The position numbers and the translations under genes are program-made. Below the pieces are notes generated by a model that was not told the origin of the DNA, made no database searches, and saw nothing but the letters and a program-made list of their open reading frames with translations. Positions 4,322-58,021 of a stretch of 64,000 nt of DNA are shown piece after piece. Source of the DNA: an uncultured Candidatus Saccharibacteria bacterium (lineage in GTDB: Bacteria; Patescibacteriota; Minisyncoccia; UBA6257; 2-01-FULL-56-20); contig CAYWDX010000001.1 in NCBI GenBank assembly GCA_964456235.1, positions 35,074 through 99,073 on the forward strand, in the 5' to 3' direction. Position 1 is the stretch's first letter; every line of letters starts with the position of its first letter.

Positions 4322-4348
4322 GGGATCAGTATAGCAAAAGAATTATCG

Positions 4349-4383
4349 TGCCCCCGTGAGGATTCGAACCTGGGACCATCTCC
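4349..4383 (-). other. Orphan tRNA 3'-half remnant (T-arm plus acceptor, no D-arm or 5' acceptor)
   Basis: The minus strand reads ggagatggtcccaggttcgaatcctcacgggggca, containing a GGTTCGAATCC T-loop. No matching 5' half exists in the 35 nt separating it from tRNA-Lys. Confidence 0.45.
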
Positions 4384-4418
4384 TTACGATTGGGAGCGAG
4401 GCGAAAATAAATGCCTCT

Positions 4419-4494
4419 TGGTGCCTCCTGCAGGGATCGAACCTGCGACCATCTCCTTAAAAGGGAGCTGCTCTACCAACTGAGCTAAGGAGGC
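4419..4494 (-). tRNA. tRNA-Lys (anticodon TTT), CCA encoded
   Basis: Manual cloverleaf: 7-bp acceptor GCCTCCT/AGGAGGC, a TAGCTCAGTTGGTAGAGC D-arm, anticodon loop CTTTTAA, T-arm GCAGGTTCGATCCCTGC, and a 3' ACCA. Confidence 0.85.
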
Positions 4495-9702: not shown

Positions 9703-9723
9703 GTTTTAATAAATTTTTAATGT

Positions 9724-10200
9724 TTATTTTTGCTTACTCACGATAACCCGCGCCGCCCGCAATACTTTTTCGTGGAGTTTGTATCCTGGCTCCACCACTT
9801 CCACGATTGATCCAGGCGGGGCCGATGCTGATTCCACTTCGGTGAGCGCTTCGGCGGTATTCGGGTCAAACGGATCGCCTGGCTTCATGTCTATTTTTTG
9901 CAGCCCTCGCTTTTTCAAAATATCTTCGATCTGCGTGCGGATGAGATACACCCCCTTCTCCACCGGCCCCGCTTTTTCGAGCGATCGAAGGCCGAGGTCA
10001 AAATTGTCGAGTACGGTGATTAAATCTTTAATGAGATCTTCGCTCCCGAACCGCGCGACTTCTTGCAAGTGTTCATATTCCTCTTTCCGATAGTTGATAA
10101 AGTCGGCTTTCGCGCGCTGCCAGCCAGCCAAGTATTCGTCGCGCTGCTTCTCGGCGGCGGCGAGTTGCGACTCTTCTTCTTTTTTTATCTCATCGGGCAT
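9724..10200 (-). CDS. grpE: Nucleotide exchange factor GrpE
   Basis: GrpE coiled-coil and C-terminal beta domain (KADFINYRKEE...DPNTAEAL). Sits in the hrcA-grpE-dnaK order. Confidence 0.85.
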   Translation of the reverse strand: MPDEIKKEEESQLAAAEKQRDEYLAGWQRAKADFINYRKEEYEHLQEVARFGSEDLIKDLITVLDNFDLGLRSLEKAGPVEKGVYLIRTQIEDILKKRGLQKIDMKPGDPFDPNTAEALTEVESASAPPGSIVEVVEPGYKLHEKVLRAARVIVSKQK

Positions 10201-10226
10201 ATTTTTTTTCTTTAATAAATCTTTAA

Positions 10227-10910
10227 TTAAAAATTCCTAAAGATCCTGATGACCTTTTTATAGTCCATCCTCTTCGGGCCGATTGCGAAAATCGAAATGG
10301 TCCCATCGCCAAAATCAAAATTGCCGCCGACAACCGCAAGATGCTCGCTGCGCGTCACCGGGCTTTTGCGGCCGATGAACACCTTGAGGCCCTCGCCCAC
10401 CTTGCCCGCAACGCGCGGGATCCGCTCATCCATATCCTCAAAGTCCCGGATCACCGACTGAAGCTCGTCACGATTCTGCCATTCGAGGCGTTCAACGAGC
10501 GCTTCGAGACCGGCCTTGTAAACCGTTTCCTGCGTGAGATCGGCCGCAACGCCAAGAAGGCCGAGCTCGCGGGAAATTCGAGCGGAAAGTTCTGCCCATG
10601 CATGTTCCTCGAGAAGTTCGCGGAGCGTTGATTCGCGAGGCGCGGGGCGCGCGTTTTCGTGCGCGAGTGCGGTCTGCATCAAGCGGTCCGCTAAAAATTC
10701 ATAGCCAGCGTCGGTGGGAATGCGGCCCGCCGAGTGGTGGGGCTGCATGAGGTAATCCGCATCTTCCAGCGCGTCGAGCTCGAGGCGGATCATCGCCGGC
10801 TTGATGCCAAAATCGAAATTATCAAAAAGCCATCCCGAGCTGATCGGTTCGCCGGTCGTGATAAAGCCCTGGATTGCTGCTTCTAAAATTTGCGCGGTGC
10901 GGTCGGTCAT
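10227..10910 (-). CDS. hrcA: Heat-inducible transcription repressor HrcA (short form, 227 aa)
   Basis: N-terminal winged helix (QILEAAIQGFITTGEPISS) and C-terminal IGPKRMDYKKVI. Operon context with a CIRCE-like site upstream. Confidence 0.75.
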   Translation of the reverse strand: MTDRTAQILEAAIQGFITTGEPISSGWLFDNFDFGIKPAMIRLELDALEDADYLMQPHHSAGRIPTDAGYEFLADRLMQTALAHENARPAPRESTLRELLEEHAWAELSARISRELGLLGVAADLTQETVYKAGLEALVERLEWQNRDELQSVIRDFEDMDERIPRVAGKVGEGLKVFIGRKSPVTRSEHLAVVGGNFDFGDGTISIFAIGPKRMDYKKVIRIFRNF

Positions 10911-25846: not shown

Positions 25847-26314
25847 CTACGGGGCGCTGCCGAATCTCACCGACACTCGGAGTTCGCCTGCATTCTGCGG
25901 CAGTCCGGAGGGATTATCTTTTTCAAACACGACGGCGCCCGTCGCATAGCGCGGCGTGCGGAAAGAAATCGTTGCGGCGAATGGAACCGTGCCGGTCGTC
26001 ATCCATGCGCCAGATCCGCCTTCGGCAGTCGCGTGGCCTTGGCCGATGATAGTCCCGTCCGCATCCAAAATTTTGATTGGGAAAGACGCCTCAAAGAACC
26101 ATCCTCCGCCGGTAACTGATCCGGCGAGCGTGACCGGCGAGGAGATGACGGCCCCCGCGGCCGGGGCGGTCACCGTAAGGTGCCTATCGGCCGATACAAT
26201 CGGTGCTGACCCAGAAGTGGTCGGGCCTTTTACTGATGGGACGAAAATCAAGACGCCCAAAAGAATAAGGATGATAACCGCAAGGGCGATGACGATGGTG
26301 CGCGCGATTTTCAT
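25847..26314 (-). CDS. Hypothetical membrane-anchored exported protein
   Basis: N-terminal TM anchor and a Gly/Thr-rich beta-type body. No recognised family. Confidence 0.5.
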   Translation of the reverse strand: MKIARTIVIALAVIILILLGVLIFVPSVKGPTTSGSAPIVSADRHLTVTAPAAGAVISSPVTLAGSVTGGGWFFEASFPIKILDADGTIIGQGHATAEGGSGAWMTTGTVPFAATISFRTPRYATGAVVFEKDNPSGLPQNAGELRVSVRFGSAP

Positions 26315-26353
26315 ATTTTTTTAATTAAAATTTTATAAAAGTGCCGCTTTTTC

Positions 26354-26927: not shown

Positions 26928-28319
<1,392 letters not shown>

Positions 28320-28331
28320 TTAATTAAAAAA

Positions 28332-29267
28332 TTATGAAAGCGCCTGGGCGCCTGACGTCACCTCGATCAGTTCGCGCGTGATCGCCGCCTGGCGCGATTT
28401 ATTGTACTCGACCGTGAGTCCCTCGGAAAGTTCTGACGCGTTGTCCGAGGCATTTTTCATCGCCACGCGCCGCGCCGAATGTTCAGAGGCGTTTGCTTCA
28501 AGAATGGCATGATAGAGACGCGTCCTCAAAAGTTGCGGCGCGAGCTCTTCGAGCACCTCCTGCGCCGACGGCTCGATGAGGCAGTCGCGCTCCCCGACCT
28601 CGAAAAATGATTCTGATTTTACATATTCGGAATACCGGCCGGCGCGCGGAATCGTTTCCTCAATCGTTTGTTTGATTGCGCCGTAGGTCACCGGCAAAAA
28701 TTCGCGGGCGACCGCATCTTGCCGAAGCGCCGTCACGAAGAGCGTGTAGAATACCATCACGCTATCGAAATCGCCGCGGACATATCCGTTCACCAAAAAA
28801 TTGGCAATCGGTTCCACTTCAGCACGCTCGGTGTAGTCGCCCACGCGGGTAAAACTCGTCACGACAGGCAACTTTTTTCGCTCCAGATAACTCTTTGCTT
28901 TTTGGCCGATGGCCACGTAAACGTTTGCTGGGTCGCGCATATTAATGTGGTGCTCTGCAACGAACGACTCGAATTTTCGAATCACCGCGCCATTGAACGA
29001 ACCGGCCAATCCCCGATCCGACGTCACGAGCACATGCAGCGTCTTTGCCACCGGGCGTGAGTGCATGATCGCGGGCATCGGCACGTTTGCGAGCTCCGAA
29101 AGGATTCCGAGAAGCTCAAGCGCGGCGTAGGAATAAGGGCGCGAGGCGAGCGCGAGCTCTTGGCTCCGCCGCATCTTGGTCGCCGCGACGAGCTCCATCG
29201 CCTTCGTGATCTGCCCGATATTTTGGACGCTCTTCATGCGCCGCTTGAGATTTTGCACTGATTCCAT
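28332..29267 (-). CDS. atpG: ATP synthase F1 gamma subunit
   Basis: Operon position and conserved N- and C-terminal helices. Confidence 0.85.
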   Translation of the reverse strand: MESVQNLKRRMKSVQNIGQITKAMELVAATKMRRSQELALASRPYSYAALELLGILSELANVPMPAIMHSRPVAKTLHVLVTSDRGLAGSFNGAVIRKFESFVAEHHINMRDPANVYVAIGQKAKSYLERKKLPVVTSFTRVGDYTERAEVEPIANFLVNGYVRGDFDSVMVFYTLFVTALRQDAVAREFLPVTYGAIKQTIEETIPRAGRYSEYVKSESFFEVGERDCLIEPSAQEVLEELAPQLLRTRLYHAILEANASEHSARRVAMKNASDNASELSEGLTVEYNKSRQAAITRELIEVTSGAQALS

Positions 29268-34520: not shown

Positions 34521-35565
34521 TTACGGCAGCGCCTCAAGCTCGGCCTCGATAAAAAGATCGAGATCGCCGGCGAGGACGTTTTGGACTTTCGCAGTTTCAG
34601 CATCCGTGCGATGGTCTTTCACGAGCTGATACGGGTTGAGCACGTAGGAGCGCAGCTGGTTCCCCCATTCCGGTTTTATTTTCGTGCGTACATTGCCGAT
34701 CTCTGCAATTTTTTCTTTCTCCATGAGGTTGTACAATTTCGCCTTGAGCATTTTGAGCGCGTATTCACGATTCTGTGCTTGCGAGCGCTGCGCCTGCGAG
34801 CTCACGGCGATGCCGCTTGGGATGTGCACGACGCGCACGGCCGTCTCCACTTTATTTACGTTTTGGCCGCCGGGGCCGCCGGATCGATAGAACTCGAATT
34901 TGAGGTCGCGTTCAGGAATTTCGAGTTTCGATTCTTCAAGAGCGGGGAGGTCAGGAATCACTTCGACGAGCGCGAACGAAGTGTGGCGCAATTGTTTTGG
35001 GGAAAACGGGGAGATGCGGACCAGGCGGTGCACGCCGGATTCGCGCCGAAGGTAACCGTAGGCGTGATCGCCGCTTAACTCGACCGTGCGCGAGCGCGGA
35101 TTGTCGTCAATCACTTTTATTTTCCATCCCCGATTGCGGGCATAGTTTTCGTACATGAGCGCGAGCATCCGCCCCCAGTCTTCGGCGTCTTCCCCTCCGG
35201 CGCCCGGATACACCGCAAGCACCGCGGCCTGTTTATCATAACGGCCGGTAAAAAGCTGTTGGAGCTCGATTTCTTTTAATTTTTTCTTGATTTCGGCAAG
35301 TTTTTTTTCATTAAAATTTTCTAAAAGTTCTGCGGCGCCGGTTTCGATCGCTTTGAAGCGCGCCACAAGATCGTTCAATATCCCGAGCTCGCGAATTTTT
35401 CCATCAATCTTTTCGCGATCTTTCGACTCCCAAAAACCAGGGGCGGCCATCTCGGCCTCCAATTCTTTCACCCGAGCCTCCTTCGTCGCTACCTCAAAGA
35501 CGCCCGCCTAATCGGCGGGCAGCCGCTCCCAATTCTTCTAATTCTTTTTTAATATCTTCTTTCAT
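34521..35565 (-). CDS. prfB: Peptide chain release factor 2, requiring a programmed +1 frameshift at CUU UGA (35499-35494)
   Basis: Main ORF contains SPF and GGQ motifs. An upstream in-frame ATG at 35565 gives MKEDIKKELEELGAAARRLGGRL then TGA. The GGCGGG-CGU-CUU-UGA-G context mirrors the E. coli prfB shift site, and the +1 frame continues into the main ORF. Confidence 0.85.
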
Positions 35566-45270: not shown

Positions 45271-45584
45271 GCAGCTATTTTACCATGCCCAGGCACCGTG
45301 GGCCCGTCGGGACTTGCACCCGCTTCTCCACTTTTCAAAGATGGCGTTTTACTCCATAAACTATAGGCCCATATACAGGCCCAAGAGCCCACGGTGAAAT
45401 GAAAGTAGCATATCGAAGATAAAATTTCGCTCAAATATTTATTAAAAAATATAAATGGCCGCTCGCGCGGCCACCTATACGAAAAGTGGAGAGACCAGCC
45501 TACGATTTATAGACTAGCACCATCTTCCCTCCAGGATAGACCAATCCCGAACCAAAAGTCAATGCGCGCTTAATGAAATTTTAA

Positions 45585-53981: not shown

Positions 53982-54259
53982 TATTGGAGATCAATTTTTT
54001 GGCCGGTTTTCAGCGTGACAATCGCCTTGCGGTATCCTTGCTGCCGCCCTTTCATCGTCGAACCAAAACGTTTTTTCTTTGGCGGACGGTTCACGATCTG
54101 TACCTGGACCGGATCAACCTTGTACGCTTCCTTCACCGCTTTTTTGATTTCTGGTTTCGTCGCTTTGTGTTTCACGATAAAAACGTACTTGCCGAGCTCC
54201 GAGAGGCGCGCGGATTTTTCAGTGACCCAGGGCTTCTTGATGATGAAGAGGTCGGCCAT
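53981..54259 (-). CDS. rplW: 50S ribosomal protein L23
   Basis: Sequence and position. Confidence 0.9.
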   Translation of the reverse strand: MADLFIIKKPWVTEKSARLSELGKYVFIVKHKATKPEIKKAVKEAYKVDPVQVQIVNRPPKKKRFGSTMKGRQQGYRKAIVTLKTGQKIDLQ

Positions 54260-54261
54260 GG

Positions 54262-54906
54262 CTATACGGTGTAGTGCTTTGCGATAACCTCTGCCGCCGA
54301 CTTTTCGATCAGTAAATTCTTGTGGTTCAAAATGTCTTGCAGATTGAGCGAGGTCGCGGTGAGCGTTTTTGCCTTTTGCAAATTTGCGGACGCGCGCTCA
54401 AGATTGCGGCTCGTCCCCGCGGGAATGAGGAGCGCGTCAAATCGCTTCGCTCCCTTCTTCATGTTCAAGATTTGATTGAGCGCCGACGCGAGAATTTTTG
54501 TTTTCGGTGCTTCAACCGTAAGATTTTCGAAAAATTTAATCTCGCCGTCTTTCGCCTTGCGCGAAAGCGCAGAGAAAATCGCGATGCGCTTCATTTTTTT
54601 ATTCACCTTTTGCGAATAGTCGCGCTCGTTCGTCGGCCCGTGCGCCTTACCACCACCGACCCACAGGGGCGAGCGGATGGATCCGTGGCGCGCGCGGCCC
54701 GTCCCCTTTTGCCGCCAGGGCTTTTTACCGCCGCCGCGCACTTCGCCGCGACCTTTTGCGTGCGCCCACGGGTGGCGCTCATTCGCGAGTTCAGCCAAAA
54801 GCACTTGCTTCACGAGCGTCGGTTTCCACGGCGCGCCAAACACCTTCTCCGGGAGTTCCATCGTGCCCACTTTTTCATTCTTCAAATTATAGAGGTCGGC
54901 GTTCAT
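54262..54906 (-). CDS. rplD: 50S ribosomal protein L4
   Basis: Sequence and position. Confidence 0.9.
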
Positions 54907-54916
54907 GGCAAAAATA

Positions 54917-55474
54917 TTAATTGCGGATCTCGAGGAGGCCGCCGCGCGCGCCCGGAACCGCGCCGCGCAAGAGAATCAGATTTTTTTCTTTATCAATGCC
55001 CGCGACGACGAGGTTTTTCACCGTCACGCGATCCGTGCCCATGTGTCCCGCCATCCGGCGTCCGGGTACCACGCGCTGGAATGCGGTGGAACCAATCGAG
55101 CCGGGCGCGCGGAAGCGATTTTTTTGGCCGTGCGTTTTTGGCCCGCCGCCAAAACCGTGGCGCTTCACGACGCCTTGGAAACCGCGGCCCTTCGTGATGC
55201 CGCTCACCCGGACTCTTTCGCCTTCTTTAAAAGATTCCACGGTCACTTCGTCGCCGGCTTTGAATTGTGCGACGTCGATCGGATGCCACTCGCGATTGCG
55301 AAATTCCCGCTTCGCTTTGCCGAGCATCACCTGCACGGCTTCGTATCCTTCCTTTTCCTTGCTGCGCAAAAGTCCCACCTTATTCGGCTGGGCTTCAACG
55401 ACCGTGACGGGCACCACTTTGCCCTCGTTCCACATCTGGGTCATTTTCACTTTTTTACCCAAGATAAACGCCAT
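54917..55474 (-). CDS. rplC: 50S ribosomal protein L3
   Basis: Start taken at MAFILGKKVKMTQ (consensus L3 N-terminus KKxGMTQ). The longer ORF to 55522 would translate through the leader hairpin. Confidence 0.9.
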   Translation of the reverse strand: MAFILGKKVKMTQMWNEGKVVPVTVVEAQPNKVGLLRSKEKEGYEAVQVMLGKAKREFRNREWHPIDVAQFKAGDEVTVESFKEGERVRVSGITKGRGFQGVVKRHGFGGGPKTHGQKNRFRAPGSIGSTAFQRVVPGRRMAGHMGTDRVTVKNLVVAGIDKEKNLILLRGAVPGARGGLLEIRN

Positions 55475-55506
55475 GGTAAAAATAAAAATTCCGGCATTCA
55501 CCGGAA
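55475..55506 (-). promoter_or_regulatory. Terminator/attenuator-like hairpin plus U-tract in the rplC leader
   Basis: Minus strand reads ttccgg-tgaatg-ccggaa followed by TTTTTATTTTTA, ending 1-3 nt before the rplC ATG. Confidence 0.45.
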
Positions 55507-55623
55507 GTTCACGCACCGCCACCGATACCCCATCATTACATGGGATTTTTACTTAAGATAAACGCTCCTCGTCCTCCTAAGCGGGTAGTGATTTGCATGA
55601 AACTTCCGAGAAACCTTGTGCAG

Positions 55624-55653
55624 AGTCTATCAAATTTTGCGGTTAACTGTCAA
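55624..55653 (-). promoter_or_regulatory. Sigma70-like promoter for the rplC operon (TTGACA-N18-TAGACT)
   Basis: -35 at 55653-55648 and -10 at 55629-55624 on the minus strand. Confidence 0.5.
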
Positions 55654-55665
55654 TTATGGTATATT
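55637..55665 (+). promoter_or_regulatory. Divergent promoter TTGCGG-N17-TATATT
   Basis: Positioned back to back with the rplC promoter. Would drive a transcript of about 85 nt ending at the 55718 hairpin. Confidence 0.4.
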
Positions 55666-55717
55666 GAGGGGAGCACTCAGGTAGTCTTGTGGAGCACGCG
55701 AAGGTCCCCCCCACCCG

Positions 55718-55752
55718 AAGCCGCGGCGCAAGTCGCGGCTTTTCCTTTTATT
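55718..55752 (+). terminator. Hairpin terminator, copy A of a twin GCAA-tetraloop element
   Basis: aagccgcggc-gcaa-gtcgcggctt (10-bp stem with one G.U pair) followed by TTCCTTTTATT. Confidence 0.6.
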
Positions 55753-55772
55753 AAAAATTTATTAAGAAAATG

Positions 55773-55801
55773 TTGACTTTGTGATGAGTGCGTGCTAATG
55801 T
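55773..55801 (+). promoter_or_regulatory. Promoter TTGACT-N17-TAATGT for the small membrane protein gene
   Basis: Hexamers at 55773-55778 and 55796-55801. The GGGGGTGGAG RBS follows at 55821-55830. Confidence 0.5.
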
Positions 55802-55831
55802 ATGGGCAGTAAGTACCTTAGGGGGTGGAGC

Positions 55832-56116
55832 ATGAAAGCGCGCCGTCGACGCTTCTTCGCTTGGGCCATGGTGGCAGTAGCTGCAATCTTCGCGAGCTTC
55901 GTGATACCGTTCGTCCTCCTGAAGTTCCGCGTCCCGGCGGACAACGGGGTGATCTGGACAACGGTCAACGGATTGAGCGCCGTGAGTATCCTTGCGGGCG
56001 TGTGCATCCTTTATCGGATCGCCGTCGAAAGGGAGACCCTGAATCTCATGGAGTCCCAGCTGGCCGATCGGTACAATCGGCGGCGCGAGGTCCACAACGC
56101 CTGGCTCTTTGGTTAG
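55832..56116 (+). CDS. Small membrane protein (94 aa, two TM helices, Arg-rich N-terminus) inserted between rpsJ and rplC
   Basis: ATG at 55832 sits 5 nt after a strong SD. The first in-frame ATG at 55802 abuts the -10 box and so is probably not translated. Own promoter and terminator. No recognised family. Confidence 0.55.
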   Translation: MKARRRRFFAWAMVAVAAIFASFVIPFVLLKFRVPADNGVIWTTVNGLSAVSILAGVCILYRIAVERETLNLMESQLADRYNRRREVHNAWLFG

Positions 56117-56132
56117 TAAACCCAACAACCAA

Positions 56133-56166
56133 AAGCCGCAGCGCAAGCTGCGGCTTTTTCTTTTTC
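56133..56166. terminator. Bidirectional hairpin terminator, copy B of the twin element
   Basis: aagccgcagc-gcaa-gctgcggctt followed by TTTCTTTTT on the plus strand and TTTTGGTTGTTGGGTTT on the minus strand. Confidence 0.65.
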
Positions 56167-56178
56167 TGCCAAGGGTCA

Positions 56179-56316
56179 TAGAAAAGTCTTTCGAGGGGGC
56201 TCTCGGAGGCGCTCGCAGCTTGGTCTTTCGCGAAGCGGAAGTGCGAGCGCTGAGAGAGCAGGGTGGCTCGTGCCGCTGGAGCACGAGAACACCCGTACCC
56301 GAGAAAGACTTTTCTA
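56179..56316. repeat. MITE-like structured inverted-repeat element (12-bp terminal inverted repeats, 14 bp with the flanking TA; two internal hairpins), abutting the rpsJ stop codon
   Basis: tagaaaagtctttc at 56179-56192 is the exact reverse complement of gaaagacttttcta at 56303-56316. Inner hairpins: gctctc-ggag-gcgctcgca/tgcgagcgc-tga-gagagc (56199-56259) and gggtg-g-ctcgtgc/gcacgag-aa-caccc (56261-56295). Confidence 0.5.
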
Positions 56317-56643
56317 GACCATCTTCACCTCCACGTCGACACCGGCGGGAAGATTCAAGTTTGAAAGTGATTCGATGATCTTCTGGCTCGGATTCATGAT
56401 CTCCACGAGGCGTTTGTGCACGCGGAGTTCGAACTGCTCGCGCGAATCCTTATGGACGAATGTCGAGCGGTTCACGGTGTAGTGCTTGATTTCGGTCGGC
56501 AACGGAATCGGGCCCACCACTTTAGCATCGTTGCGCTCGGCGGCTTCAATGATTTGGCGCGCCGAGGTATCGATCAATTTGTGATCGTAGGATTTGATTC
56601 GCAAACGGACTTTCTGGAGAACTTCCGATTCCTTTTTTGCCAT
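56314..56643 (-). CDS. rpsJ: 30S ribosomal protein S10
   Basis: Sequence identifies S10. It lies immediately downstream of tuf. Confidence 0.95.
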
Positions 56644-56644
56644 A

Positions 56645-57844
56645 TTACTTGACGATCTTCGTTACAACGCCGGCGCCTACGGTTTTGCCACCCTCGCGGA
56701 TAGCGAAGCGCTGCTTCTCTTCGAGCGCCACGGGACTGATGAGCTTCACGGTAAGCTTCACCGTGTCGCCCGGCATGACCATTTCCATGCCATCCGGCAA
56801 GGTCACTTCGCCCGTCACATCCGTCGTACGGATGTAGAACTGCGGCTTGTAACCCTTGAAGAACGGCGAGTGACGGCCACCTTCCTCTTTCGAGAGCACG
56901 TAGACTTCGGTTTCGAATTCCGAGTGCGGCGTTACCGTTCCCGGTTTCGCGATCACCTGACCGCGCTCAACGTCTTCCTTCTTCAAGCCGCGGAGCAAGG
57001 CGCCAACGTTGTCGCCGGCCATACCTTCATCCAACAGCTTGTTGAACATTTCAATACCGGTGATGACGGTCTTCACCGTCGGGCGGAGACCAACGATCTC
57101 AACTTCCTCGTTCACCTTCACCTTGCCACGTTCCACGCGGCCCGTAACGACGGTACCGCGGCCTTCGATCGAGAAGATATCTTCGATCGGCATAAGGAAC
57201 GGCTTGTCGAGTTCGCGCGTCGGCGTCGGGAAATATTCATCCATCGCCGCAACGAGGTCCAAGATCGGTTTTGCGTCGGCGTCGTCACCGGAAGCCGCGT
57301 TCAATGCCTTCAAGGCCGAGCCGCGGATCACCGGCGCTTTGTCGCCGTCGAACTGATATTTCTTCAAGAGCTCGCGGACTTCAGATTCCACGAGGTCGAT
57401 GAGTTCTGGATCATCCACTTGGTCGCACTTGTTCAAGAACACAATAATGTTCGGGACGCCTACCTGGTGCGCAAGCAAGATGTGCTCCCGCGTCTGCGGC
57501 ATCGGACCATCCGTGGCCGCAACGACGAGGATCGCGCCGTCCATCTGGGCGGCACCCGTGATCATGTTTTTGATGTAGTCAGCGTGGCCCGGAGCGTCGA
57601 TGTGCGCATAGTGGCGCTTCGCCGACTCGTATTCCGAGTGGTGAAGGGCGATCGTGATGCCACGCGCCTTTTCTTCCGGAGCGTTGTCGATCTGGTCAAC
57701 TGCTTCCTCTTTTTTTGCCAAACCCTTTTTGAACAACACGTGCGTGATCGCGGCGGTCAGGGTCGTCTTGCCGTGATCCACGTGGCCGATCGTACCCACG
57801 TTCAAGTGGGGCTTTGATCGATCAAATTTTTCCTTTTCTGCCAT
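56645..57844 (-). CDS. tuf: Elongation factor Tu
   Basis: [15 protein letters not shown] and NKCD motifs. Confidence 0.95.
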
Positions 57845-58021
57845 TTGTTTTTTAGAATTTTTTAATGTTTATTTAACAATCATGACAATCGATCGAACAA
57901 ACAGAAGATGAGGCAAAGCCCCATCTCGTGCGGGTTGCTAGGCCGCTCTTTTCACTTTCCTATCAACCAGGAGATTAGCCAATCGACCCGAAAGTTCCCC
58001 TCGATGCAGGAAGTACCAAGG

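What the first reader, a model, noticed from the sequence alone, without database searches (positions are those of the whole stretch)
55718..56166. Mini-cassette: small membrane-protein gene bracketed by twin GCAA-tetraloop hairpins showing compensatory covariation
Copy A is aagccgcGgcgcaagTCgcggctt and copy B is aagccgcAgcgcaagCTgcggctt. Both fold as 10-bp stems closed by a GCAA tetraloop followed by T-tracts. The G8:C17 pair in A becomes A8:T17 in B, a compensatory change. That argues for a repeated structured element (REP-like or terminator family) rather than chance. Between them lie a promoter, an SD and a 94-aa two-TM protein.
Basis: seen in the sequence. Interest (0 to 1): 0.6.

Follow-up and report, generated by a model that had tools for sequence, protein, structure and literature searches.

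The report
Twin terminators around an orphan gene
Two near-identical hairpins are ordinary transcription terminators that fence off a small, lineage-specific membrane-protein gene wedged backwards between two ribosomal-protein transcription units of a Parcubacteria genome; it is real but ordinary.

Summary
Two 24-nt hairpins (55718-55741, 56133-56156) have GCAA tetraloops and T-tracts, differ at 3 stem positions, and all 3 changes keep pairing. Between them lie a promoter-like site, a Shine-Dalgarno sequence (SD) and a 94-aa two-TM ORF (55832-56116).

The REP-like or dispersed-family reading is not supported.
- There are only these 2 copies in 64 kb and none in 516 kb of related loci.
- The same motif occurs in at least 120 unrelated metagenome contigs as a single-copy terminator. 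It is a generic, convergent intrinsic-terminator design.

The cassette sits antisense in the ~840-bp spacer between rpsJ (end of tuf-rpsJ) and rplC. The rplC operon has its own promoter and a conserved leader.
- Hairpin B is symmetric, so it is probably a bidirectional terminator for rpsJ and the ORF.
- Hairpin A works only on the + strand (G·U wobble, U-tract on one side). It lies between the divergent rplC and ORF promoters.

The ORF is an orphan with no homologue among ~15 billion proteins, yet it looks coding. Close relatives have a 255-350-bp spacer without it, and one relative carries three other antisense orphan genes there. The spacer is therefore an insertion hot spot.

The two hairpins are most likely a local duplication of a 32-nt terminator module. 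Interest is low.

The parts
55717..55749 (+). Hairpin A: 11-bp stem (one G·U), GCAA loop, tail TTTTCCTTTT. It is a + strand-only intrinsic-terminator-like element located between the divergent rplC and ORF promoters.
   Evidence: The + strand folds at -20.0 kcal/mol (z -4.6). The - strand folds at only -14.1 (z +0.6), because the G·U becomes A·C, and it has no U-tract (CUUCGGGUGGGG).
56131..56165 (.). Hairpin B: 12-bp stem, GCAA/UUGC loop, A-tract on one side and T-tract on the other. It is probably a bidirectional intrinsic terminator shared by the convergent ORF (+) and tuf-rpsJ (-).
   Evidence: Energies are -21.7 (+) and -21.3 (-) kcal/mol. Tails are UUUUUCUUUUU (+) and UUUUGGUUGUU (-). 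It starts 15 nt after the ORF stop. On the - strand it is the first terminator after rpsJ.
55773..55801 (+). Promoter-like site for the ORF: TTGACT, 17 nt, TGcTAATGT, preceded by an AT-rich tract (55746-55772).
   Evidence: Read. The upstream AT-rich block plus -35 resembles other sites in the window (D17 and I5). It is not listed by the strict scan, because the -10 matches only 3 of 6.
55820..55830 (+). Shine-Dalgarno-like AGGGGGTGGAG upstream of the ATG at 55832.
   Evidence: Read.
55832..56119 (+). Orphan ORF of 94 aa with tandem stops TAG TAA. It has a positively charged N-terminus (MKARRRR), two TM segments, and a charged C-terminal helix.
55637..55665 (+). Possible weak promoter (TTGCGG, 17 nt, TGgTATATT). 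It would drive a ~77-nt transcript ending at hairpin A. This is inferred only.
   Evidence: Read. The downstream 87 nt fold no better than shuffles, apart from the hairpin (z -1.8).
55624..55653 (-). rplC operon promoter: TTGACA, 18 nt, TAGACT, with TG. It diverges from the ORF promoter.
   Evidence: Promoters sit in the same position in relatives.
55475..55623 (-). Conserved structured rplC leader with a terminator-like hairpin plus U-run just before the ATG (context, not part of the cassette).
56179..56316 (.). Very stable 138-nt three-way-junction palindromic element with 19-nt terminal inverted repeats. It overlaps the rpsJ stop codon and is lineage-specific like the cassette.
   Evidence: (I2). 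It is absent from relatives.
56314..56643 (-). rpsJ (ribosomal protein S10), last gene of the tuf-rpsJ unit (context).
54917..55474 (-). rplC (ribosomal protein L3). The true start is probably ATG 55474 (MAFILGKK...), not the GTG at 55522 (context).

Best explanation
The two hairpins are Rho-independent transcription terminators of a very common design: a GC-rich stem, a C(GCAA)G tetraloop and a U-tract. They bracket a lineage-specific orphan gene for a small two-TM membrane protein. The gene sits antisense in the spacer between two ribosomal-protein transcription units of a Parcubacteria genome: tuf-rpsJ, and rplC-rplD-... The second unit has its own promoter and leader.

Hairpin B is a bidirectional terminator. 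It ends the orphan mRNA on the + strand and the tuf-rpsJ transcript on the - strand.

Hairpin A works only on the + strand. It lies upstream of the orphan gene's promoter, between that promoter and the divergent rplC promoter. There it can only stop + strand transcription coming from the rplC side, namely a short divergent transcript or antisense read-in. It therefore insulates the orphan gene.

The two hairpins are most likely paralogues. A 32-nt terminator module was probably copied locally when the orphan cassette was inserted or assembled, and selection has since kept both stems paired.

**Shown:** the sequences, the folds, the strand asymmetry, the gene context, the absence of the ORF from relatives, the generic nature of the motif, and the orphan status of the ORF.

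**Inferred:** actual termination, expression of the ORF, the duplication event, and the insulating role of A.
For: **Terminator anatomy and energies**
- B is equally stable on both strands (-21.7 and -21.3 kcal/mol) and has an A-tract and a T-tract. An upstream A-tract is described as a characteristic feature of bidirectional terminators (bioRxiv 10.1101/2024.05.16.594410).
- A is stable only on the + strand (-20.0 against -14.1) and has a U-tract only there.

**Position**
- B begins 15 nt after the ORF's tandem stops. It is the first terminator after rpsJ on the other strand.
- Every relative has a simple terminator after rpsJ, then a promoter and leader for rplC. So the two ribosomal units are separate and a terminator is expected here.

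**Generic design**
- At least 120 unrelated metagenome contigs and 4 viral contigs carry the motif once each. The variable bases pair in 119 of 124, and the tail is T-rich in 76 of 124.
- A phage terminator also matches.

**Paralogy**
- No other terminator in the window resembles them.
- 516 kb of related loci contain no copy within 3 substitutions and only one GCAA-loop terminator.
- The three differences all keep pairing (P 0.02-0.12 if neutral).

**ORF looks coding**
- The codon-usage score is at the 19th percentile of true genes and is reached by only 2.2% of off-frame windows.
- Two TM segments appear in 1 of 3000 open shuffles.
- The predicted fold is a helical hairpin with pLDDT 77.
- A public gene-caller called it.

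**Lineage-specific insertion**
- Relatives have spacers of 255-350 bp without the ORF.
- L213 has 2.5 kb with three other antisense no-Pfam genes in the same spacer.
- L212 has an unrelated gene after rpsJ.
Against: - There are no transcript data, so termination and expression are untested.
- Hairpin A has no annotated gene upstream on its strand, so its role as a terminator is the weakest link. It could be a non-functional relic.
- The ORF's -10 hexamer is poor (3 of 6), and the consensus scan did not call the promoter.
- The antisense frame scores almost as well in codon usage (0.18 against 0.23 bit per codon).
- The ORF has no homologue at all, so purifying selection cannot be shown.
- Similarity between A and B does not extend significantly beyond the 32-nt functional module. 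Because the design is convergent elsewhere, independent origin cannot be excluded.
- Only 64 kb of the genome could be searched.
Confidence: 0.7

Rival explanations
1. The two hairpins are independent terminators that converged on the same popular design. There was no duplication, and the apparent compensatory change only reflects that each one is a hairpin.
For: The identical motif recurs in at least 124 unrelated contigs. Copy B's exact sequence occurs 5 times and copy A's once. It also occurs in a phage. The flanks of A and B are not significantly similar.
Against: None of about 10 other strong terminators in the window shares the stem or loop. 516 kb of related loci hold no copy within 3 substitutions and only one GCAA-loop terminator. 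Two such copies 415 bp apart are therefore very unlikely to be independent. The T-tracts also match at 9 of 10 positions.
Confidence: 0.17
2. The hairpins belong to a dispersed REP-like or miniature mobile family, or they are recombination sites of a small mobile gene cassette. Analogues would be integron attC sites, or the subterminal hairpins of IS200/IS605-type elements and their non-autonomous palindrome-associated derivatives (PATEs). The ORF would be the cargo.
For: Similar hairpins lie in direct orientation on both sides of a self-contained gene. The spacer is a recurrent insertion site for antisense orphan genes in related genomes. A second palindromic, lineage-specific element with terminal inverted repeats lies next to hairpin B.
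Against: Only 2 copies occur in 64 kb and none in related loci. Nothing resembling a transposase or integrase lies in the ORF list of 54000-58000. No GTTRRRY core sites lie next to the hairpins (read). Both hairpins carry U-tracts typical of terminators. Apart from the terminator itself, no similar DNA occurs in phage or plasmid collections. The inserted genes in L213 are not flanked by twin hairpins.
Confidence: 0.05
3. The 94-codon ORF is not a gene. The region is non-coding DNA or encodes RNAs only, for example a short RNA ending at hairpin A and a longer one ending at hairpin B.
For: No homologue exists in about 15 billion proteins. There are no significant Pfam, PHROG or PADLOC hits. The -10 element is weak. 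The antisense frame is also open for 177 codons and has a similar codon score.
Against: Two clean TM segments with positive-inside charge distribution are very unlikely by chance (1 of 3000 open shuffles). GC3 is 0.78 with gene-like GC1 and GC2. An SD and tandem stops are present, and a terminator follows 15 nt later. The antisense ORF runs through a -21 kcal/mol terminator and the three-way junction, lacks an SD, and has no homologue.
Confidence: 0.2

Closest known systems
Rho-independent (intrinsic) transcription terminators, including bidirectional terminators between convergent genes
   Same: Both elements have a GC-rich stem of 11-12 bp, a stable GNRA-type tetraloop with a C-G closing pair, and a U-tract directly 3'. 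Hairpin B also has an A-tract 5'. It lies between the convergent ORF and rpsJ, 15 nt after a stop codon.
   Different: Hairpin A is not downstream of any recognisable gene; it lies between two divergent promoters. Two terminators with near-identical sequence 415 bp apart are unusual. No termination data exist for this uncultured organism.
REP/BIME-type repetitive extragenic palindromes
   Same: They are short, GC-rich extragenic palindromes whose copies differ by pairing-preserving changes.
   Different: REP families have tens to hundreds of copies per genome, often in clusters and alternating orientations, and lack U-tracts. Here there are 2 copies in 64 kb, both in the same orientation, and both have U-tracts.
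Integron gene cassettes (attC) and IS200/IS605-derived hairpin-bounded elements
   Same: A single small gene is bounded by similar hairpins.
   Different: The hairpins have no attC core sites and no extrahelical bases. No integrase or TnpA lies in the ORF list around the locus. No further copies were found. The gene has its own promoter, whereas integron cassettes usually do not.
Small orphan membrane proteins, including type I toxins
   Same: It is a short, hydrophobic, lineage-restricted protein with its own promoter and terminator.
   Different: At 94 aa with two TM segments and a 30-residue charged tail, it is longer than typical type I toxins (under 60 aa). No antisense RNA gene is evident.

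Membership tests
Intrinsic (Rho-independent) terminator | Stable GC-rich stem-loop in the RNA | tested here: met
   A folds at -20.0 and B at -21.7 kcal/mol on the + strand (z -4.6 and -5.8). B folds at -21.3 on the - strand.
Intrinsic (Rho-independent) terminator | U-rich tract immediately 3' of the stem | tested here: met
   A+ has UUUUCCUUUU. B+ has UUUUUCUUUUU. B- has UUUUGGUUGUU, which is weaker. A- has none.
Intrinsic (Rho-independent) terminator | Located at the 3' end of a transcription unit | tested here: inconclusive
   B meets this for the ORF (15 nt after the stops) and for rpsJ. A has no recognisable gene upstream on its strand and lies between divergent promoters.
Intrinsic (Rho-independent) terminator | RNA 3' ends and termination at the site | not testable with these tools
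   No transcriptome data are available. The organism is known only from one NCBI assembly and one Logan assembly.
Bidirectional terminator | Symmetric hairpin with an A-tract 5' and a T-tract 3', between convergent genes | tested here: met
   Hairpin B shows equal stability on both strands and carries AAAA 5' and T5CT5 3'. It lies between the ORF (+) and rpsJ (-). The feature is described in 10.1101/2024.05.16.594410.
REP-like dispersed repeat family | Many copies dispersed through the genome | tested here: not met
   The 64-kb window holds 2 copies with up to 3 mismatches allowed, and 516 kb of related loci hold none. The rest of the genome (the contig is 323 kb) could not be read.
REP-like dispersed repeat family | Copies share sequence that marks common descent rather than a generic structure | tested here: not met
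   The same 20 specified bases occur in at least 124 unrelated contigs of GC 39-73% with unrelated flanks.
Integron cassette / attC | R''/R' core sites (GTTRRRY) flanking an imperfect palindrome, with an integrase nearby | tested here: not met
   No GTTRRRY lies next to either hairpin (read). Nothing resembling an integrase appears among the ORFs of 54000-58000. The rest of the window was not screened.
Known protein family for the 94-aa ORF | Significant match to any Pfam, PHROG or PADLOC model, or to any homologous protein | tested here: not met
   It matches only itself in the 5.8e9-cluster search and in the exhaustive phmmer of 1.84e9 representatives. The other hits are long repetitive proteins. 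The best Pfam hit is 16 bits, below the cut-off of 26.7. PHROG and PADLOC gave nothing significant.

The most novel reading that the evidence does not exclude
The rpsJ-rplC spacer of this Parcubacteria clade is a dedicated landing pad. Small self-contained orphan-gene cassettes would be captured there by recombination or template switching at terminator hairpins. The twin hairpins would be the scar: a duplicated target terminator. This would be a terminator-targeted gene-capture mechanism distinct from integrons and from known insertion sequences.
Probability: 0.05. Interest if true: 0.5.

Novelty: new member of a known kind. Interest (0 to 1): 0.15.

Why it matters
It matters little by itself, because these are standard terminators around one more hypothetical small membrane protein.

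The case is still a useful caution. A hairpin pair with 'compensatory' differences is not evidence of an RNA family when the motif is a convergent terminator design found across unrelated bacteria.

The context is mildly informative for the biology of Patescibacteria (the candidate phyla radiation, CPR). In this clade the classical S10 operon is split after rpsJ. The gap is variable and repeatedly picks up antisense orphan genes. The rplC operon is preceded by a conserved structured leader that is not in Rfam.

Tried and rejected
- **Rfam.** At gathering threshold over the whole window it found only tRNAs. At E up to 10 over 55450-56400 it found only sub-threshold matches to sRNA families, and the alignments shown match through the terminator hairpin.
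- **Dispersed family.** Rejected within the window and in related loci.
- **Mobile element or phage origin.** blastn against phages and plasmids found only a terminator-to-terminator match.
- **Protein homology.** This covers the word-indexed search, the exhaustive phmmer, Pfam, PHROGs and PADLOC. All returned nothing real.
- **The 177-aa ORF on the opposite strand.** It has no homologue and no Pfam match. It crosses hairpin B and the three-way junction, so it was rejected as a gene.
- **Population variation for dN/dS or covariation.** The only other copy of the locus (Logan SRR12313479) is 100% identical.
- **Extended homology between the flanks of A and B.** It is at shuffle level.
- **Other short repeats around the locus.** TGGAGCACG occurs three times, and a 14-nt inverted repeat lies upstream of each hairpin. 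My own estimate, not a tool result, puts these at chance level.
- **Terminal repeat of the three-way junction.** It was searched in viral contigs and in all fetched loci. Only single hits turned up, none with the partner arm.
- **The GTDB genome scan with L3.** It did not contain the source genome. The nearest L3 is 69% identical, so a whole-genome count of the motif was not possible.

Full report
**1. Observation**

They are the only matches in the window even with three mismatches allowed, and 0 of 100 shuffles gave two matches. On the + strand they fold as 11- and 12-bp stems closed by a GCAA tetraloop. The energies are -20.0 and -21.7 kcal/mol, and the tails are UUUUCCUUUU and UUUUUCUUUUU.

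The three differences lie at positions 8, 16 and 17. They change G:C to A:T and G·T to G:C, so all pairs are kept. In a neutral simulation, three substitutions keep all ten pairs in 2-12% of trials. That is suggestive but weak.

Gapless similarity can be drawn over 44 nt at 80%. Only the 32 nt of hairpin plus T-tract are significant, and 150 nt of flank on either side align no better than shuffles.

**2. What lies between the hairpins**

These features were read.
- An AT-rich block lies at 55746-55772.
- A promoter-like site TTGACT-17-TGcTAATGT lies at 55773-55801.
- A Shine-Dalgarno sequence (SD), AGGGGGTGGAG, lies at 55820-55830.
- An ATG lies at 55832.
- The 94 codons end in tandem stops TAG TAA (56114-56119), 15 nt before hairpin B.

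The AT-rich block plus -35 resembles other intergenic sites in this window (D17 and I5). The -10 hexamer is poor, and the strict scan did not list the site.

The ORF scores 0.23 bit per codon with this genome's codon usage. That is the 19th percentile of true genes, and only 2.2% of off-frame windows reach it. Its GC1/GC2/GC3 is 0.60/0.44/0.78.

It has two TM-like segments, residues 8-30 and 41-65. The N-terminus MKARRRR is positively charged and the C-terminal tail is charged. Only 1 of 3000 open shuffles gives two such segments. A single-sequence AlphaFold model is a helical hairpin with pLDDT 77.

The overlapping 177-codon ORF on the other strand runs through hairpin B and the neighbouring palindrome. 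It has no homologue and no Pfam match, so I reject it as a gene.

**3. The ORF is an orphan**

The word-indexed search of 5.8 billion clusters returned only the protein itself. The exhaustive phmmer of 1.84 billion representatives returned itself plus eight long repetitive proteins at E of 9e-7 or weaker, which I read as spurious matches. Pfam, PHROGs and PADLOC gave nothing significant. The only other copy of the locus, a Logan assembly, is 100% identical, so there is no variation to analyse.

**4. Context**

All flanking genes are on the - strand.
- tuf is at 56645-57844 and rpsJ at 56314-56643.
- rplC is at 54917-55474. The true start is probably the ATG at 55474, judged by its N-terminus MAFILGKK.
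- rplD, rplW and the rest of the ribosomal-protein cluster follow.

The cassette therefore sits antisense in an ~840-bp gap between rpsJ and rplC.

The organism is a Parcubacteria/Paceibacteria-type Patescibacterium. The best L3 matches, at 68-69%, are Candidatus Parcubacteria and Liptonbacteria MAGs.

In relatives with S10 of 88-94% identity, the same gap is 255-350 bp. It holds a simple terminator right after rpsJ, then a sigma-70-type promoter and a long leader for rplC, and none of these spacers holds the orphan ORF.

Other relatives differ.
- L213 has 2.5 kb with three antisense genes without Pfam hits in the same gap.
- L212 has an unrelated gene after rpsJ.
- In three more distant Parcubacteria, rplC is not preceded by rpsJ at all.

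So tuf-rpsJ and rplC-... are separate transcription units in this clade. The gap between them is a variable region that repeatedly acquires lineage-specific genes, often antisense.

**5. What the hairpins do**

Hairpin B is symmetric. It folds at -21.7 kcal/mol on the + strand and -21.3 on the - strand. It has AAAA on one side and T5CT5 on the other.
- On the + strand it follows the ORF.
- On the - strand it is the first terminator after rpsJ, with tail UUUUGGUUGUU.
- This is the anatomy of a bidirectional terminator. The upstream A-tract is described as characteristic of these (10.1101/2024.05.16.594410).

Hairpin A is asymmetric.
- Its G·U pair becomes an A·C mismatch on the - strand. The fold there is -14.1 kcal/mol, no better than shuffles.
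- No U-tract follows on that strand. It can act only on + strand RNA.
- It lies between the rplC promoter (55653..55624, - strand) and the ORF promoter (55773-55801, + strand). It therefore ends neither of those transcripts.
- It could stop + strand transcription arriving from the rplC side. One candidate is a ~77-nt divergent transcript from a weak TTGCGG-17-TGgTATATT site at 55637-55665. The other is antisense read-in across the ribosomal operon. This part is inference.

**6. Family or generic design?**

Properties of the 124 hits:
- Each contig carries one copy.
- Contig GC ranges from 39 to 73%.
- The flanks are unrelated, apart from a few orthologous groups.
- The four free positions pair in 119 of 124 cases.
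- The tail is T-rich in 76 of 124.
- Copy B's exact sequence occurs five times and copy A's once.

An Achromobacter phage terminator also matches hairpin B. The motif is thus a convergent, widely used terminator design and is not evidence of a family.

Within this genome region it is still not common. About ten other strong terminators in the window have unrelated stems and loops. In 516 kb of related ribosomal loci there is no copy within three substitutions and only one GCAA-loop terminator. Two copies 415 bp apart are therefore best explained by local duplication of the 32-nt module, with independent convergence as the minority alternative.

One consistent but speculative history runs as follows. 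A single bidirectional rpsJ terminator was duplicated when the cassette arrived. The copy that no longer faces rpsJ (A) then lost its - strand U-tract and - strand pairing, while keeping its + strand function.

**7. Rivals**

- A REP-like or mobile-cassette reading has little support. There are no further copies, no attC core sites, and nothing resembling a transposase or integrase among the ORFs around the locus. The only similarity to phage or plasmid records is the terminator-to-terminator match; the plasmid search found nothing. The inserted genes of L213 have no twin hairpins.
- The reading that the ORF is not a gene cannot be dismissed, because there is no conservation and the -10 is weak. 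It is outweighed by the TM pattern, composition, SD, tandem stops and terminator.

**8. Comparison with known systems and verdict**

Both elements work like intrinsic terminators and meet the sequence-level criteria for them. B also meets those of a bidirectional terminator. Termination itself could not be tested. They fail the copy-number and sequence-specificity criteria of a REP-like family, as far as 64 kb allows. The ORF belongs to no known family.

This is a new instance of a known kind and is of low interest.

Two neighbours are more unusual and are listed separately. One is a conserved structured rplC leader with a terminator-like hairpin. It has four sequences, 10 pairs with changes on both sides, and 0 of 500 shuffles reaching the observed covariation score. 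It has no Rfam match. The other is a hyper-stable 138-nt three-way-junction palindrome overlapping the rpsJ stop codon.

Noticed in passing
window 55475-55623 (- strand); L083 4436-4597; L086 610-770; L003 2900-3048: A conserved ~150-nt structured leader lies between the rplC promoter and the rplC ATG. A 5' CUCGGAAGUU pairs with AACUUCCGG, which is the left arm of a terminator-like hairpin (UUCCGG-UGAA-UGCCGGAA plus a U-run) ending 8 nt before the ATG. No SD is visible.

The three closest sequences are 81% identical. A covariance model finds a fourth copy in L003 (54 bits), where rplC is not preceded by rpsJ. Ten pairs change on both sides, and 0 of 500 shuffles reach the observed score. There is no Rfam match at E below 10, and the leader is not among the 20 r-leaders of PMC7247131.

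It is a candidate ribosomal-protein (L4-type?) attenuator leader of Parcubacteria. L213 and L214 have a different leader that also carries a hairpin plus T-run.
   Followed up: partly
window 56179-56316: A 138-nt element with 19-nt terminal inverted repeats (TAGAAAAGTCTTTCGAGGG) folds into a near-perfect three-way junction. The energy is -89.6 kcal/mol (z -9.5) on the + strand and -78.4 on the - strand.

Its outer stem contains the rpsJ stop codon TAG, and it ends 13 nt from hairpin B's T-tract. It is absent from relatives, has no other copy in the window or in any fetched locus, and has no Rfam match.

It could be a MITE-like insertion (TA on both ends) or an rpsJ 3'-UTR stabiliser. It remains unexplained.
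   Followed up: partly
L213 2834-5310; L212 1479-2243; L003, L005, L006 upstream of rplC: The rpsJ-rplC junction is a variable hot spot in this clade. L213 has three antisense genes without Pfam hits (294, 123 and 143 aa). L212 has an unrelated same-strand gene. In three more distant Parcubacteria, rplC is not preceded by rpsJ at all; in L003, for example, a 650-aa protein lies upstream.
   Followed up: partly
window 55546-55565 vs 55452-55471: A 20-nt direct repeat at 90% identity: the first codons of rplC (GCGTTTATCTTGGGTAAAAA on the - strand) recur 94 nt upstream inside the leader. This suggests a past duplication of the rplC start. The upstream copy follows a GGAGGA motif.
   Followed up: no
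window 9704-10247, 26308-26345, 28296-28344, 35294-35331, 55746-55772: An AT-rich motif of the type TTTAATAAATTTTTAATTAAAA recurs in both orientations at several sites in this 54% GC window. One copy lies just upstream of the orphan gene's -35. It may be an UP-element-like promoter module or a protein-binding site.
   Followed up: no
window 4348-4386 next to tRNA-Lys 4419-4494 (- strand): A 39-nt copy (82% identity) of the 3' half of tRNA-Lys lies 73 nt from the real tRNA. Neither ARAGORN nor Rfam calls it a tRNA. It may be the scar of an integrase-mediated insertion at the tRNA 3' end.
   Followed up: partly
window 45299-45370 (- strand): Rfam calls a weak tRNA here (37.9 bits) that ARAGORN does not report.
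   Followed up: no
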